Source: a virus
Taxonomy: Duplodnaviria; Caudoviricetes
IMG/VR virus record: IMGVR_UViG_3300036783_000149
Span: 1-44,382 of that record
Length of the DNA: 44,382 nucleotides
Reading direction: 5' to 3' (one strand)
Below, in pieces: positions 5,229-29,161 of this stretch (position 1 is its first letter; every line of letters begins with the position of its first letter). The translations under genes were made by a program, and so were the position numbers. The notes under the pieces were generated by a model, which ran no database searches, was not told the DNA's origin, and saw nothing but the letters and a program-made list of their open reading frames with translations.

Positions 5229-5270
5229 AGGCTCGCGCTAAGCACGTGGTTCTCGCCGGCTGATGGGCTT
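5229..5270 (-). ncRNA. Orphan single TIGR-like guide unit
   Basis: + strand aggctcgcgc-taagcacg-tggttctcgc-cggctgat-gggctt; same two repeats and spacing as the arrays at 23.8-25.3 kb; intergenic. Confidence 0.65.
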
Positions 5271-9983: not shown

Positions 9984-10394
9984 TTATTCGGGTTTCGGGA
10001 ATGTCACAAATTCTTGGTTGCGTTCATTCATCAACGGTGCTTGCGCTAGTTTTATATCATGGTCCCTTGCCCACATTTGGAAGGTTTGGTTGAGCATGGT
10101 TCCAAGGTCTTCTTTAGCAGACCTATCGATGTCGGCAAACAATTCACCGTCTTCGTTGGTGTATTCTTCGTAATTGGATTCTAGTTCATCCAGAACGTCG
10201 TTGGGATCGATTTCCAAATCTTCTACAGTATGACTCTGGGCCTCTAATACAAGAACATTGACGTTTCCTTGATCCTGTTCTTGATTGTAGATGCCTTGTT
10301 TTTGGGCTTGGAATATAGCCTCATCCCTAGTCGCGTAGGGTCCATGATACCGCTCTTCATCATCAGTTATCCACCATTGGTGCGGGCTCGGCAT
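9984..10394 (-). CDS. Acidic hypothetical protein
   Basis: Likely start MPSPHQWW at 10394 with GGAGGA RBS; GPYATRDEAI motif. Confidence 0.65.
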   Translation of the reverse strand: MPSPHQWWITDDEERYHGPYATRDEAIFQAQKQGIYNQEQDQGNVNVLVLEAQSHTVEDLEIDPNDVLDELESNYEEYTNEDGELFADIDRSAKEDLGTMLNQTFQMWARDHDIKLAQAPLMNERNQEFVTFPKPE

Positions 10395-11457
10395 TAGGTG
10401 ATCCTCCATCTGGGGTAGGGCTGTCATCCCAAATCCGCTTGCGCTTGGGCAGGAATGCAGCTTCAATATCATCCCACACTTTAGCGGCGATGTCACCAGC
10501 CTCATCGATCAATTGCCAATAATCGTTGTCGGACAATTCTTCTGCCCAGCGGTTGAATTGGGTTTTAGACTTGTCTTTTAACAGTAAATCCAGCTTGCCG
10601 ACTTCTTCTAAGAAGTCCATACTGGATTGAAGATCATCGACACCAAAGCTAAAACGTAAGGTAAAATCGCATTGACGTAAAGGTACTGATATCTTATTCT
10701 TCTCGGCTTTGGCTCTTATGTCGAGACTGATTGGACGCTTTATCTTATCGATGGTTTGTTCGTTAGTCTTGATCTTGTGCAGCCAGAGACAATGGGTGGC
10801 AAAGAAGTCGAGCGCGCGGCCACCTGACCGGGTGCTCTTCTTACCAAATGTAATACCGATATTGTCGCGTTCCTGACTGATGATCATCAAGTGAGTTTTG
10901 GTGCTTTTAAGTTCTCGTACCAGCCGGCGAAGCAGTTGTGACATCTGCTTGGCCTTTTCCATTGAATACGAGCCTTCATTGAAATCGCGTTTCAACTCGG
11001 CTTCGCTGCTAAGCGCATCCAATGAATCGAGGATGTATAATCCCGGCTCCCCATCTAATTCCTTAAGGTATTCCTCCAAATCTTTGTAGAAATCTTCGAT
11101 GGTATTGACATCACGGTCAATACCGAAATCTATTTTATCGACAGGCATGCCAATCGAGGCAGCGTAAGCCTGATCAAAAGCGGCTTCGCTTTCACGATAC
11201 TTGGGCATTGCGTTGGGAAACTGCCGCATAAAGCTATTTGTAGCTTCGATGGCGAGGAGTGTCTTCCCGGTGCTTTTGTCACCGATTATGTTGCTGATCC
11301 GGGAGAGTGGCCAGCCACCACCTAATACACAATCCAATAAACGACAGCCGCTTGATATAAACTCCAATGGAGCCTGCGGCTCAAAATAGCGTCCTCCACT
11401 TTTGTGTTTATCAAAGGCTTCGGCTGGAATAACTACTCGTTGTAGCGAAGCCGCCAT
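10363..11457 (-). CDS. recA: RecA/UvsX-like recombinase
   Basis: SSGC..LD..LGGG, Walker A GDKSTGKT, LDSLDAL, SGGRALDFFA, KNKI. Confidence 0.9.
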   Translation of the reverse strand: MAASLQRVVIPAEAFDKHKSGGRYFEPQAPLEFISSGCRLLDCVLGGGWPLSRISNIIGDKSTGKTLLAIEATNSFMRQFPNAMPKYRESEAAFDQAYAASIGMPVDKIDFGIDRDVNTIEDFYKDLEEYLKELDGEPGLYILDSLDALSSEAELKRDFNEGSYSMEKAKQMSQLLRRLVRELKSTKTHLMIISQERDNIGITFGKKSTRSGGRALDFFATHCLWLHKIKTNEQTIDKIKRPISLDIRAKAEKNKISVPLRQCDFTLRFSFGVDDLQSSMDFLEEVGKLDLLLKDKSKTQFNRWAEELSDNDYWQLIDEAGDIAAKVWDDIEAAFLPKRKRIWDDSPTPDGGSPNAEPAPMVDN

Positions 11458-18679: not shown

Positions 18680-19705
18680 TTATCGTACCACCGAGATGAT
18701 GTGAGTGTATCCTTCTGGTCCGCGCAAGCGGACACCATTATCTTTGATACACATATGGGTTCGCCCTATTAATCCCCGTTTTAGTAGTTTGGGGTCGAGC
18801 TTCACCATTATAGTCTCATGTTCATGTGAGGGAAGCAGAATCTCTTCCTCGATACGCGCGCCTTGGTGCATCGATATCAAGTACAACAATTCTCTGTTGA
18901 TTGAGAGCGCAATTGGAGCGTCTTTAATAGACACTCGATCAAGTGCTGCTTCCAACTCCTCCGGGATCACAATGTCGGGGCCGTCGATCCTGGCCATGAT
19001 GTTGTCCCAGTTTGGCATCTTGGGACATTCGATCAAATTGCCGGTGACAGTGGCATTCTTGGTAGTAAAGCCAATTGCATTATCTGTGAGATACAAACAC
19101 TCCTTACCACCTAATGGTATAAACTTGAACATCTGCCTGATAAAGGAAATTGGTACCACGGCGAAGTCATCAAAACCAAATGACCATTCCTCAGGAGGAT
19201 CGATTCTTTGTTCGGATAATGTGAAGTCATCGGTGGCATATAATTTCATAAAGACACCGTAATTGGCAAAGAACACTCCCATCTTTGCCGGCACGGCTGA
19301 TTTAGGATCGTGTGAAATTATGACGCGTGAGAGTCCAACCAGAAAGTTGTGATCTAGTGACAGTCGTTCGCTGGGTGTTGGTGGTGTCGGTATTATACAC
19401 CGCTGCGGGTCCAACAGTGGGAAGGTGTAGCGGGAGCGCCCGGCTGACACTGCTAGAGATTTGTCTTCTGGTTTGAGTGTCACTGACGGACTGGTGGTTT
19501 TGTCGAGCCAATCTAAGAATGAATGTGGAACACCACCTGAGATTTCTAGATCGAACGGCGTGTTGATTGTCAAGTGACCATTAAAGGCACTGATTTGGTG
19601 ACCATCGAACCAATAATGCCCCATCTCAATGGCGCGGTTCTGTGTCGCCAAGGCCGGTTTGCAAATATCCAATGCCTCGATCAATTCACTTCGTTTTACT
19701 TGCAT
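18680..19705 (-). CDS. DNA sliding clamp (beta/DnaN-like)
   Basis: Size about 340 aa; ATD...L, PNWD, L..ALDRV patterns; next to polymerase and clamp loader. Confidence 0.75.
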   Translation of the reverse strand: MQVKRSELIEALDICKPALATQNRAIEMGHYWFDGHQISAFNGHLTINTPFDLEISGGVPHSFLDWLDKTTSPSVTLKPEDKSLAVSAGRSRYTFPLLDPQRCIIPTPPTPSERLSLDHNFLVGLSRVIISHDPKSAVPAKMGVFFANYGVFMKLYATDDFTLSEQRIDPPEEWSFGFDDFAVVPISFIRQMFKFIPLGGKECLYLTDNAIGFTTKNATVTGNLIECPKMPNWDNIMARIDGPDIVIPEELEAALDRVSIKDAPIALSINRELLYLISMHQGARIEEEILLPSHEHETIMVKLDPKLLKRGLIGRTHMCIKDNGVRLRGPEGYTHIISVVR

Positions 19706-23759: not shown

Positions 23760-23773
23760 TCGTGCTCCTGTTT

Positions 23774-24126
23774 TAGTTCTCGCTGAGTTCAGGACTCGCG
23801 CAAGTCAAAATCTAGTTCTCGTTGGGCATTAGGCTCGCGTTCCTTTTTGAGTTCACGCCTTCCTCCAAGGCTCGCGCTCGGCGTGGGGTTCTCGCTGATT
23901 TTTGGGCTCGTGCTTCTTACGGGGTTCACGCTGGTGGCATGACTCACGCATATCACCGAGTTCTCGCGGGATATCAGGGTTCGCGCTCTAATGGGGGTTC
24001 TCGCATTGTATTGGGCTCGCGCTTATACATGGGTTCTCGCGTCACACAAGGCTCGCGCCTTACTTCAGGTTCTCGCTCGGTGCAGGGCTCGCGGCATCAA
24101 TCAGGGTTCTCGCCCAGTAATTGGCT
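23774..24126 (-). repeat. TIGR-like dual-repeat array, downstream (10 units)
   Basis: gttc(t/a)cgc at 23776, 23815, 23851, 23888, 23924, 23960, 23997, 24033, 24069, 24106, alternating with ggctcgcgc; unique spacers of about 9 nt; period mostly 36-37 nt. Confidence 0.88.
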
Positions 24127-24127
24127 C

Positions 24128-24988
24128 CTACCGAAACGGCGGTGGAATATAACCGCTGTGTCCCAACTTCTCAATTGGAAATGGAGCACGAACCGGTTGA
24201 CCAGTCCTTTCCAACCATATTTCATTCATATGGCTGAGAAAGATTTTGACAGCATAGCGCCGCGCCCGCGCATCAATATGTCCCGGCGGTAGTTTGCCGG
24301 TACTGTAATGCTTGTAGGCTTCAGTGGTCTTGCCGACTCGGGTCATCCATTCTGCGGCGATTTCACTACGCTTACCGCTTTCGCTCATATTGACTTCAAA
24401 CTCTTTGCGCTGGCGGTATAGCTTACCGTAAAAGCAATCATCCCGCCCGCTGAACTTCATAAACGATTGTCCAGAATGCCAGCAGATGGTTTTGAGTCTA
24501 GTGTTGTAGGGACGAAGCTCGCCCTTGTTCCACTTCTTTTGGTCTTTGCCGGCGATGCCAGCAAATTGGTATATCTTACCGGCAGTAGGACGCGGGCCTT
24601 CAAGATGAGCAATGATGCCGGCAGAGATGACCGGACCAATACCAACAACCTGCCGCATCCAATCCCCCATGACATGGCCACGGGTGAATTGATCAAGTGA
24701 CCGTTTGATTTGTCCTTCTAGAGCACTCGACTGCTCAAACAACCAATCGAGTAGGACATGCGGTTCCGGGTGTTGGCCTTTGACATCGGCACCTTTGTCC
24801 AAGGCAAGTCCTTGGCTGTTTGCCCGTTTGCGTTGATTCTGGATGGCGTAGTATTGATCAACCAGAAATCGAGCTTCACCAATACCCATTACACGTGATG
24901 CTGTTGCCAGATCACGCGACAATCGTTTAATGGAAGGAAGATGCTCCGTCCATGTATCATCATCAAATTGTTGGTCTTCAAAGGTCAT
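24128..24988 (-). CDS. Nop-domain/IS110-related RNA-guided protein, TasA-like (no nuclease domain)
   Basis: 286 aa from MTFEDQQ (AGGAG RBS); coiled coil, GIGPVISAGII, FAGIA, YN..LK..CW, GHID.RARR..VK.FL; no RuvC DEDD domain, no catalytic SG motif; flanked by arrays. Confidence 0.8.
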   Translation of the reverse strand: MTFEDQQFDDDTWTEHLPSIKRLSRDLATASRVMGIGEARFLVDQYYAIQNQRKRANSQGLALDKGADVKGQHPEPHVLLDWLFEQSSALEGQIKRSLDQFTRGHVMGDWMRQVVGIGPVISAGIIAHLEGPRPTAGKIYQFAGIAGKDQKKWNKGELRPYNTRLKTICWHSGQSFMKFSGRDDCFYGKLYRQRKEFEVNMSESGKRSEIAAEWMTRVGKTTEAYKHYSTGKLPPGHIDARARRYAVKIFLSHMNEIWLERTGQPVRAPFPIEKLGHSGYIPPPFR

Positions 24989-25000
24989 TGTACTTCTCCT

Positions 25001-25260
25001 TGGGTTAACGCACTTCGTTGGGTTCTCGCTTGGGCAATGGCTCGCGCTCTGCATTAGGTTCTCGCGAAGGCTTGGGCTCGCGCATACAGTAGAGTTCTCG
25101 CTTATAGAATGGCTCACGCGGCGAATCGGGTTCTCGCGGGTAAAGGGTTAGCGCCTTGCTTCAAGTTCTCGCTTCGAGTTTGGCTCACGCGGTGGTATGA
25201 GTTCTCGCACTGCATCGGGCTCGCGCTACCTTTCTGAGTTCTCGCGGTGTTCAAGGCTCC
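25001..25260 (-). repeat. TIGR-like dual-repeat array, upstream (7 units)
   Basis: gttctcgc at 25022, 25058, 25094, 25130, 25165, 25201, 25238, alternating with ggctc(g/a)cgc; 35-37 nt period. Confidence 0.88.
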
Positions 25261-25610
25261 CACCAGAAACATGGTGGTTCTCTATTTTCAAGTTGAATAT
25301 ATCCGTAACGCAATAGGACATCGGGTAGGAATTCATTGAATACGTTCTCGACAAATATACCAGCTAGACCCTCCTTTAATACAAGTTCTCGCATCAATAA
25401 GTCAAATTCCTTAAATTGCCCGGTCCTTCTTGTCTTGTCTTTTAGTATGCTATTGTTTGGTCTTTTTATATTCGTGATATTGGCCATGTCCAGACAATGT
25501 ACATGTCGATCATTAATAAAGCGTTGACTCTTGCGGACATAGACTTTCAAATTGCGGTAACGCACGTAGGCGTTTCTATTTGGTGAGATAAGAAACTCCT
25601 CCAGAGTCAA
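25251..25610 (-). CDS. Hypothetical, possible GNAT-fold protein
   Basis: LDMANI...RRTG.F...IFVENV.N..L...L.RYGY pattern. Confidence 0.6.
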   Translation of the reverse strand: MTLEEFLISPNRNAYVRYRNLKVYVRKSQRFINDRHVHCLDMANITNIKRPNNSILKDKTRRTGQFKEFDLLMRELVLKEGLAGIFVENVFNEFLPDVLLRYGYIQLENREPPCFWWEP

Positions 25611-26571: not shown

Positions 26572-26756
26572 GGTCTTACTCCTGAGAGATATCTAGCAAT
26601 GTGGTTAGATATCTCTTTTGCTAGATCATGGGTTTCGGCATTGGTATAGGTCAATCCCATTTCCCGTTGCCGCTGATCGGCTCGCTGTATATATTTGCGG
26701 CATAGAAACTCAAACCACATATCAGGATCGATCAGAGGCAACGGGTTATCATCCAT
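26568..26756 (-). CDS. Hypothetical protein
   Basis: Start MDDN; coupled. Confidence 0.5.
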   Translation of the reverse strand: MDDNPLPLIDPDMWFEFLCRKYIQRADQRQREMGLTYTNAETHDLAKEISNHIARYLSGVRP

Positions 26757-26760
26757 TGGG

Positions 26761-27243
26761 TTACCCTTTCTTCGGTGGCAACATACCATCAAGAATGCGA
26801 CCAGCGAAATTGTGAATACCGGTCTTGTGTTCTACCAGAGCAATGATCGCTCCGTCAGAACGATTCCGTATGATGTTCCACTGACCGGATTCCATGTTGC
26901 CATCATTATCGATAGCAATGGCGAGCACCGCTTCAATACGGTTGGGCTGTTGTGATGGCGGGTCGAGCTTGGTGATGTCTACACCAGCCGGTACTTCGTG
27001 CAACCACACCTCGCCGCAGAACATGGCAGCGACCGCGCCCATTTCATGGGCTCTTCGCTTTACCTCGGCAACAGAGGCAAGCTTCTCTCTTTCATTACCC
27101 CATGGCGTGCCGATAACAATATCCCCTTTGTTATCGGGGGATACAAGGTGAAACATCGTCATTAGCTCCTCTTGCTTGTGCTCGATAAGCGAGAGGTGAG
27201 CCATCTTTTCGGCATTGGCAATTAACTGCTTCAGTATAGTCAT
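26761..27243 (-). CDS. Hypothetical protein
   Basis: E.W...PS..P.R.E motif; GAGGAG RBS. Confidence 0.7.
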   Translation of the reverse strand: MTILKQLIANAEKMAHLSLIEHKQEELMTMFHLVSPDNKGDIVIGTPWGNEREKLASVAEVKRRAHEMGAVAAMFCGEVWLHEVPAGVDITKLDPPSQQPNRIEAVLAIAIDNDGNMESGQWNIIRNRSDGAIIALVEHKTGIHNFAGRILDGMLPPKKG

Positions 27244-27322
27244 TTTCCGCTAACTCCTCAAATTGGCTGTCCCACAATGGGACAGGCTAGTACCTCCCCA
27301 CAAACAACAAGTGTATGTGGGG

Positions 27323-27405
27323 AGGTTCGCGCGGTGGTTTAGGTTCTCGCACTGCATGGGGCTCGCGCGGGCTATTTGGTTCTCGCGTGTGCTAGGGGCT
27401 CGCGT
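27323..27405 (-). repeat. Satellite TIGR-like mini-array (2 units)
   Basis: ggttcgcgc/gttctcgc/ggctcgcgc/gttctcgc/ggctcgcgt at 18-nt spacing; intergenic. Confidence 0.8.
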
Positions 27406-27407
27406 AA

Positions 27408-27929
27408 TTAGGCAGCTACCATCGCATCTCCAATCATTTCTTTCATCATTTGGCGATATCGGTTTCGACCTTCACCGATTGACATCCAATGCCATTCGTT
27501 GTCATCGTAGCTGGAGGCTTCGTTCTTTCCAACGCGCTCCACAACAAAGTCCAGCTTCAACGCAGAACACAATGCCTGAAACATATCAACCGCGTTGATC
27601 ACAGCAGCTTTGTCGGCATGCTGGTTGATCTTCTTCAAAGTCTTGTTCATGCGGTACGAGTCCCGTTGTCCAATATGGTGGACATCGTAATACCCCGGTT
27701 CATAACCGATAAGATCGGGATTAGGACCACTGCTGACAAAGCCACGCATCTTGAGTCGATCCAACTGCAAAGGTATAAGATGCTTTGGTCTGCCAATTTC
27801 GGTGAAGATACCATCGGAACAATTGCGCGGGGCGTGGTGGTTATCCTCGCGCCGCACCAGTTCCGCAACAAGATACTCGGCACCGTGAACGTTCTCACGG
27901 CGCAACAACAAACCGTAGGTATTAGTCAT
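27408..27929 (-). CDS. Hypothetical early protein
   Basis: AGGAGTAA RBS; 173 aa. Confidence 0.7.
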   Translation of the reverse strand: MTNTYGLLLRRENVHGAEYLVAELVRREDNHHAPRNCSDGIFTEIGRPKHLIPLQLDRLKMRGFVSSGPNPDLIGYEPGYYDVHHIGQRDSYRMNKTLKKINQHADKAAVINAVDMFQALCSALKLDFVVERVGKNEASSYDDNEWHWMSIGEGRNRYRQMMKEMIGDAMVAA

Positions 27930-28180: not shown

Positions 28181-28417
28181 TTATCTTCTCCTGGGCATTG
28201 AAGCATAGGCATTCATGATTTTGCCCGCTGCTTCTACTGCCGCAGGAAGCGGCAGTTTCATCTCGGCAACCCGGTCAAAACGCCAGTTGTCGCCTTGCTG
28301 TGTACCACTAACCGATTTCTTGTAGTAGTACACATGCGCGCCGCTATCTACCGGGACCACAATGGCTTTATGCATCCCGGCACTGGCCATAATCTCAATG
28401 TTCTTGCTCTTCGCCAT
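28181..28417 (-). CDS. Hypothetical early protein
   Basis: GAGGAG RBS. Confidence 0.65.
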   Translation of the reverse strand: MAKSKNIEIMASAGMHKAIVVPVDSGAHVYYYKKSVSGTQQGDNWRFDRVAEMKLPLPAAVEAAGKIMNAYASMPRRR

Positions 28418-28446
28418 TTTCCGCTAACTCCTCAAAACTTGAACCG

Positions 28447-28924: not shown

Positions 28925-29161
28925 TTACTTACTCCTATCAATAGTGGTGGTGTGTTGTACCGCTTGGAGAAATCCAAGCGTGTTGAGTGCTGTGACTGTT
29001 CCGACCATGACGCTGAACAAACCAAACACTACAATGACAATGCCCGTGAACATTGTCATTAGTGATGGTTTACTGTCAATTTTTGACTCGAGTCGTACTA
29101 TGTCAACTCGCAATTGTTGTAGATCGGTGTGAAGGGTTTCTAGTGTAACTCCTCCATTCAT
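28925..29161 (-). CDS. Small coiled-coil + transmembrane protein
   Basis: LRVDIVRLESKID followed by hydrophobic helix. Confidence 0.65.
   Translation of the reverse strand: MNGGVTLETLHTDLQQLRVDIVRLESKIDSKPSLMTMFTGIVIVVFGLFSVMVGTVTALNTLGFLQAVQHTTTIDRSK

What the first reader, a model, noticed from the sequence alone, without database searches (positions are those of the whole stretch)
27323..27405. Satellite mini-array carries a diverged duplicate of a main-array guide
A 2-unit array lies about 2 kb from the Tas-like gene, between unrelated genes. 27330-27368 matches 25188-25226 at 35/39 nt. The three spacer differences fall at the 5' ends of the RNA spacers, which are the outer edges of the rebuilt target, leaving the core ATGCAGT-GGTGGT intact. 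This suggests guide duplication and diversification against target variants and hints at a central seed region.
Basis: partly seen in the sequence, partly recalled or inferred. Interest (0 to 1): 0.72.

Follow-up and report, generated by a model that had tools for sequence, protein, structure and literature searches.

The report
Satellite TIGR guide copy in phage
A phage keeps a two-guide RNA cassette about 2 kb from its RNA-guided DNA-binding gene (TIGR-TasA), one guide being a near-copy of a guide beside that gene, and related phages swap such units between remote and main arrays, likely by recombination, which hints at how these arrays renew their guides, while the proposed 'central seed' signal does not hold up.

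Summary
Observation confirmed: 27330-27368 matches 25188-25226 at 35/39; chance about 1.4e-4. It is a two-unit dual-repeat TIGR mini-array on the minus strand, 2.3 kb from a nuclease-free tasA (24131-24988); a further lone unit lies at 5230-5270.

The seed reading fails. The base after each repeat is C in 76-83% of related spacers, so spacers are 8 nt and only two differences lie in them. Across 14 related near-duplicate pairs, 5 of 29 changes fall in the two 5' positions (7.25 expected) and 10 in the two central ones. A close strain changes this guide inside the 'core' (one low-depth contig). Seed and 5' tolerance are already published for TasR/TasH. No target was found for either version.

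What stands: remote arrays occur in 4 of 8 related lineages; in a five-strain set one satellite slot holds an exact copy of a main-array unit. Likely repeat-mediated recombination shuffles guides across the genome, bearing on the open question of TIGR spacer turnover. The scan has noted satellites and module copying before, on other DNA.

The parts
27324..27405 (-). Satellite dual-repeat TIGR mini-array, 2 units: edge 27405-27397, unit S1, edge 27368-27360, unit S2, diverged 3' edge 27332-27324
27333..27359 (-). Unit S2 (spacer A 27358-27351, loop repeat 27350-27341, spacer B 27340-27333): near-copy of main-array unit U2
27369..27396 (-). Unit S1 (spacer A one base longer than usual); no close paralog in the window's other arrays
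25182..25226 (-). Unit U2 of the upstream main array with its two edge repeats (spacer A 25216-25209, spacer B 25198-25191); strain X2 differs at 25210
27292..27326 (-). Perfect 11-bp hairpin overlapping the satellite's 3' edge repeat; no U-tract
   Evidence: not listed as terminator-like
27267..27285 (-). Second 8-bp hairpin before the ribosome-binding site of ORF 27243-26761
25003..25263 (-). Upstream main TIGR array, 7 units, ending at the tasA ribosome-binding site
24128..24988 (-). tasA: 286-aa Nop-only Tas protein, no nuclease domain in the alignments
   Evidence: (9MTY TaTasR E 3e-11; SpTasH E 9e-10)
23766..24126 (-). Downstream main TIGR array, 10 units
5230..5270 (-). Lone TIGR unit 19 kb from tasA, directly in front of the ribosome-binding site of ORF 5209-4622
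27408..27929 (-). 173-aa phage ORF whose stop codon abuts the satellite; 24 other homologs, no Pfam or PHROG family
10363..11457 (-). UvsX/RecA-like recombinase of the same phage (candidate agent of unit exchange)
   Evidence: phrog_97, E 1e-54

Best explanation
The stretch is a two-unit TIGR guide mini-array whose second unit is a copy of main-array unit 2, likely moved by recombination between the short repeats and then changed at two spacer bases, and it is likely transcribed with its flanking genes and loaded in trans by the phage's nuclease-free TasA, which would bind and silence DNA of a rival or kin phage. Shown: the array anatomy, the paralogy, the 8+8 register, remote arrays and in-place unit swaps in relatives. 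Inferred: recombination or gene conversion as the route (the phage encodes a UvsX-like recombinase, an SSB and SbcCD-like proteins), co-transcription, processing to 36-nt tigRNAs, and repression as output (shown for other TasA proteins in 10.64898/2026.09.09.750476). Both spacer changes sit at positions reported as tolerant in TasR/TasH, so the two versions likely cover the same or overlapping targets: redundancy rather than proof of a seed.
For: Pair not chance. Near-duplicate whole units (at most 3 of 16 differences): 19 pairs among 343 distinct units vs 0.47 in column shuffles. Identical half-spacers reused within a record in 13 of 25 records, at most 0.27 expected per record (several records are strains of one lineage). 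Remote arrays in 4 of 8 related lineages with 10 kb or more read (G001 has five). Five strains (L013, L019, L024, L026, L035; aligned blocks 87-99.7% identical) keep satellites at fixed sites with 2 to 8 units; in L013 the first unit of one satellite is exchanged cleanly between edge repeats for a unit identical to a main-array unit of L024. Strain X2 of this phage lacks two downstream units and has another unit replaced in place. Satellite is co-oriented with the flanking genes, begins right after a stop codon and ends in an 11-bp hairpin (z -3.77 for 27240-27420). A guide in an isolated 2-unit array (L031) spells a 13-bp palindrome repeated across the related TasA phage G001 (31 sites by a looser pattern; 1 of 377 guides, 0.4% of partner-shuffled sets; seen post hoc), which fits the ungapped 8+8 register and a use for mini-array guides.
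Against: No RNA data on the satellite. No target for U2 or S2. The satellite site is not covered in any other strain, so presence/absence and the direction of copying are unknown. The hairpin lacks a U-tract, and no promoter-like site lies within 1.6 kb upstream on this strand. The SpTasH processing tyrosine Y289 aligns with F270 here (F in 30 of 35 homologs). Relatives were partly found by an array pattern, which inflates the share with remote arrays. One preprint finds most single mismatches impair SpTasH, so the two versions may not share targets.
Confidence: 0.6

Rival explanations
1. One reading: the copy was kept and tuned by selection to track a variant of the same target, with the central bases held by a seed requirement.
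For: Both true spacer changes are at the 5' ends (P = 0.05 post hoc); TasR and SpTasH tolerate 5'-edge mismatches.
Against: No 5' bias in 14 related pairs (5 of 29, binomial p 0.40) or 35 half-spacer pairs (4 of 35). Strain X2 changes U2 at spacer A position 7 and another guide at position 6 (one contig each, depth 3-4). If the changes were tolerated they would add little new range. No family of viral loci holds both predicted variants.
Confidence: 0.15
2. The satellite is a neutral by-product: a recombination leftover in an intergenic gap, possibly a mosaic of several units, drifting without use.
For: All four differences exist elsewhere in the genome next to repeats: the loop plus first three bases of S2's B side occur only in S2 and U6, and its edge plus first two bases only in S1 and S2; by my rough estimate such matches are likely by chance (P about 0.6), so this is possible, not shown. 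The 3' edge is diverged; no target found.
Against: Both loop repeats and the middle edge are perfect consensus. Satellites persist at fixed sites across five strains of a relative while their units turn over. An isolated mini-array guide matches a repeated phage motif.
Confidence: 0.15
3. The main role of the satellite is in cis: TasA cuts the edge repeats in the polycistronic early mRNA, and the two hairpins protect or tune the downstream message, the guides being secondary.
For: The satellite sits between a stop codon and a ribosome-binding site with two hairpins; the lone unit at 5230-5270 also abuts a ribosome-binding site; H277 (SpTasH H296) is invariant in 35 of 35 homologs.
Against: G002 and G003 (98-100% complete) carry no remote units; three distant homologs of the upstream gene have no array after it; no expression data.
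Confidence: 0.1

Closest known systems
Dual-repeat TIGR-TasA (FpTasA type; Faure et al. 2025, PMC12045711)
   Same: Alternating edge and loop repeats, 36-nt period, box C/D-like ends, Nop-only Tas protein, phage-borne, arrays on both sides of tas.
   Different: Extra arrays 2 kb and 19 kb from tas, with a unit copied between arrays; the sections read describe arrays upstream or downstream of tas and speculate that short repeats minimise recombination, whereas this clade shows frequent unit exchange. Box C reads CCC/CCT/CCA and box D CG.
SpTIGR-TasH of Salicola phage CGphi29 (PMC12045711, PMC13421893, 10.64898/2026.08.11.744272)
   Same: 16 variable bases per unit (8+8); the only relative among annotated phage records (2 records of this phage, 23.5% identity); processing histidine kept.
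   Different: No HNH nuclease here; the processing tyrosine Y289 aligns with phenylalanine; mismatch rules were measured for cleavage, not for binding-only TasA.
Virus-borne mini-CRISPR arrays (PMC6858448, seen in a search listing only)
   Same: One- to few-unit guide cassettes in a virus, away from effector genes, thought to serve virus-against-virus conflict.
   Different: Those are CRISPR repeats that borrow host Cas proteins (recalled); here the repeats are TIGR and the effector is on the same genome.

Membership tests
Dual-repeat TIGR array | Two alternating 8-12-nt repeats separated by short variable spacers, 36-nt period | tested here: met
   satellite loops 36 nt apart; repeats identical to the main arrays
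Dual-repeat TIGR array | [quoted passage not shown] | tested here: met
   Both repeats begin GCG and end CC/CT plus a C/A/T base; a distant clade has the published CCA (motif definition)
Dual-repeat TIGR array | Truncated edge repeats at the ends and a 3' rho-independent terminator | tested here: inconclusive
   3' edge diverged and followed by an 11-bp hairpin without U-tract (not listed); 5' edge almost full
TIGR-TasA system | Nop-domain Tas protein without nuclease domain | tested here: met
   matches the Nop parts of TaTasR (9MTY) and SpTasH; 286 aa; no Pfam nuclease hit
TIGR-TasA system | Y/H processing dyad of dual-repeat Tas proteins | tested here: inconclusive
   H277 in 35 of 35; position 270 F in 30, Y in 5; TaTasR has W in that column; a nearby Y280 is invariant
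TIGR-TasA system | Array processed to 36-nt tigRNAs bound by Tas | not testable with these tools
   no RNA holder listed
TIGR-TasA system | Tandem-spacer recognition of a DNA target (spacer A plus reverse complement of spacer B) | tested here: inconclusive
   No target for this phage's U2/S2; ungapped one-mismatch hits of 312 related guides 17 vs 9.9 in controls; one guide spells a repeated phage palindrome
   changes per spacer position 1,4,3,3,6,2,3,7; 2,2,7,2,4,5,5,8

The most novel reading that the evidence does not exclude
Scattered TIGR mini-arrays and the main arrays form one genome-wide guide pool: whole units and half-units are moved and re-paired by repeat-to-repeat recombination and then point-mutated, a Cas1-free way of renewing guides, and the guides aim at control elements of kin TasA phages (a repeated 13-bp palindrome, possibly tasA itself). 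The satellite here would be a snapshot of a guide just after export and retuning.
Probability: 0.35. Interest if true: 0.75.

Novelty: new variant of a known kind. Interest (0 to 1): 0.45.

Why it matters
How TIGR arrays gain and change spacers, and what their natural targets are, is stated as unknown in PMC12045711 and 10.64898/2026.09.09.750476 (discussions read). Units copied between remote and main arrays, with strain-level swaps, give a testable route (recombination through 10-nt repeats) and show that surveys limited to the tas neighbourhood miss guides. It does not explain where wholly new spacers come from, and the seed idea adds nothing to published mismatch data.

Tried and rejected
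Target searches: no exact match for any window guide in 1.80 Mb of held loci and genomes with 0-2-nt gaps. IMG/VR scan for the four combinations of the two variants gave 31 loci (9 U2-type, 2 S2-type, 20 hybrids; no homologous set with two variants), against 120 or more for the reversed control. A looser core scan stopped at 120 of about 240 stretches (32 of 64 parts; flanks fetched for 80): no locus with a second exact core and no cluster holding both variants; one 8-locus cluster reads D/N-A-V-V-V in frame, partly like a serine-recombinase motif (recalled), not taken further. No window site differing only silently from the U2, S2 or S1 target. No RNA holder listed. Strains X2 and X3 do not cover the satellite. 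Single-protein locus searches for tasA and the upstream ORF found nothing; the alignment search for the upstream ORF gave 3 distant loci without arrays. The GTDB scan for the array pattern gave 1 hit of three repeats with no window protein matched in 11 kb, so no host. Rfam: 3 sub-threshold matches only. L024, L035 and L028 could not be searched whole. The mosaic origin of S2 from U2, U6 and S1 was considered and left as unproven. Dropped before counts: units whose linkers are not 9+9 bases (one search kept 312 distinct units), eight loci of a distant clade, and L031/L042 in the half-spacer test (under 6 halves).

Full report
Observation. The two 39-nt stretches match at 35 positions. [quoted passage not shown] The window is a whole 44,382-base virus record with 20 units at four places: 10 downstream of tasA, 7 upstream, 2 in the satellite, 1 at 5230-5270 (0 pattern matches in 100 shuffles). 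The 286-aa ORF 24131-24988 matches the Nop parts of TaTasR (9MTY) and SpTasH and has no Pfam hit: a TasA. The chance of a unit pair within 2 of 16 spacer bases among 190 pairs is about 1.4e-4. The best read holder is a soil metagenome that may be the source; a second soil run holds a close strain in pieces.

Register. Pattern scans found the same repeats in 11 viral and 36 metagenome stretches (several are the same contig). Among 343 distinct near-clade units, the base after a repeat is C in 76% of A halves and 83% of B halves, G in 1-2%; in eight more distant loci it is mostly A (88 of 154), giving the published box C, CCA. In the window it is C 17, A 8, T 7 of 32. So repeats are 10 nt and spacers 8 nt, like the 16 variable bases of SpTIGR. 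The copy then differs at spacer A1 and B2, and at two loop-repeat bases.

Seed test. Published: TasR is most sensitive at the two bases 3' of the cut (positions 6-7 by my reading of the C-5 rule) and more tolerant at both edges (PMC12045711); SpTasH tolerates position 1 and not position 5 (PMC13421893); another study finds tolerance only at MM2 and MM8 (10.64898/2026.08.11.744272). Natural data here: linking 312 distinct 8+8 units at up to 3 differences gives 15 tree edges, 14 without the window pair, with 29 changes spread 1,4,3,3,6,2,3,7 over positions 1-8; 5 of 29 lie in the two 5' positions (7.25 expected, p 0.40), 10 in the two that form the target centre, 5 in positions 6-7. One-mismatch half-spacer pairs within records: 2,2,7,2,4,5,5,8 (35 pairs; about 19 such pairs are expected by chance). 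Strain X2 changes U2 at spacer A position 7 (25210) and the first downstream guide at position 6 (single contigs of depth 3.1 and 4.2, so errors are possible). The window pair's 5' placement has P = 0.05 post hoc. The sample is small, but it gives no sign of edge bias.

Satellites and unit traffic. Remote arrays occur in G001 (five), G004 (two), the L023/L039 lineage (one large) and the L024/L035 lineage (two), and not in G002, G003, L016 or G006: 4 of 8 lineages with 10 kb or more read (the pattern search favours array-rich records). Whole-unit near-duplicates: 19 pairs at up to 3 differences vs 0.47 in shuffles. Identical half-spacers recur within 13 of 25 records, often with a different partner. 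Five strains keep two satellite sites; one holds 2, 4, 4, 8 and 8 units, and at the other L013 has its first unit exchanged exactly between edge repeats for a unit identical to one in L024's main array. Strain X2 of this phage lacks two downstream units and has one unit replaced. The phage encodes a UvsX-like recombinase, an SSB and SbcC/D-like proteins. Inference: recombination or gene conversion through the repeats moves whole and half units between arrays, and point changes follow.

Expression. All flanking genes are on the minus strand; the satellite begins two bases after a stop codon and ends in an 11-bp hairpin followed by a second hairpin (z -3.77). The nearest strong promoter-like sites upstream are at 29106 and 29079 (7 found vs 4.8 in shuffles, so weak). 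H277 is invariant, while the SpTasH tyrosine position is mostly F. Loading is likely, not shown.

Targets. None for U2 or S2. For the clade there are hints: ungapped one-mismatch hits 17 vs 9.9, gapped 7 vs 9.4 and 8 vs 8.0; a guide in the isolated array L031 spells a 13-bp palindrome repeated through G001, L016 and L042 (control 0.4% at 13 bases but 14% at 11 bases); a guide of L043 matches the 3' end of tasA of L039 at 15 of 16 and its own at 14 of 16. Both were seen post hoc.

Comparison and novelty. The system is a dual-repeat TIGR-TasA. Read: PMC12045711 sections 4 and 10, part 2 of the text and found passages; 10.64898/2026.09.09.750476 abstract, sections 5, 10, 11, 13 and passages; PMC13421893 abstract, sections 15-17 and passages; 10.64898/2026.08.11.744272 abstract, section 6 and passages; 10.64898/2026.10.21.760802 passages; PMC6858448 search listing only. 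Searches listed no paper on remote TIGR arrays or unit exchange; 'orphan' is absent from both survey papers and 'remote' and 'shuffl' from the TIGRFinder preprint. I read no supplements; figure S4 and table S1 of Faure et al. and the TIGRFinder position plots (flanks up to 10 kb) may already show remote units. Earlier notes of this scan report satellites and module copying on other DNA and the four array sites of this genome; they are unchecked leads.

Verdict. Real and non-random; a satellite TIGR guide copied from the main array, one case of a clade-wide traffic of guide units. The diversification-against-variants and seed claims are not supported. Interest 0.45.

Noticed in passing
window 5230-5270 (-): A lone, consensus-repeat TIGR unit 19 kb from tasA, directly before a ribosome-binding site.
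   Followed up: partly
L031 2171-2207; G001 (31 sites), L016 (11), L042 (6), L037 (1): A 13-bp palindrome is repeated through several related phage records, often beside arrays; a guide in the isolated 2-unit array of L031 spells it (two G001 sites at 15 of 16). Candidate natural target: a kin phage's regulatory motif.
   Followed up: partly
L043 unit at 1128; L039/L028 tasA 3' end; window 24137-24152: First guide behind tasA in L043 matches the YIPPP-coding end of tasA: 15 of 16 in L039, 14 of 16 in its own gene and in the window's. Self-regulation, kin targeting or local spacer capture.
   Followed up: partly
spacer positions 1-2 across 343 related units: Spacer position 1 is A/T-rich (about 0.73) and position 2 A/G-rich (about 0.7), unlike positions 3-8.
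   Followed up: no
L016 vs L024/L035: Phages whose tasA genes are 76% identical share several exact guide units, suggesting exchange between lineages.
   Followed up: partly
L019 623-976, L026 935-1254: Expanded satellites look like head-to-tail joins of small arrays, with array-end and array-start motifs inside.
   Followed up: no
window 27241-27262 and 28415-28436: Identical 22-nt ribosome-binding and start regions of two different genes flanking the satellite region, a sign of local recombination.
   Followed up: no
window 25164-25172 / 24068-24076 and 23850-23858 / 23775-23783 units: Other one-mismatch half-spacer pairs inside the window (4 pairs vs 0.51 expected, two of them the U2/S2 halves).
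   Followed up: partly
window 24146-24174 (-): Promoter-like site (10 of 12) at the 3' end of tasA just before the downstream array; 1 found vs 2.8 in shuffles.
   Followed up: no
window 19003-19027, 26578-26630, 26663-26745: Further strong palindromes in intergenic or small-ORF regions.
   Followed up: no
G005 (28.9 kb): About 70 units in three arrays with repeat variants in the same order as the window's downstream array, but no tasA in the fragment.
   Followed up: no
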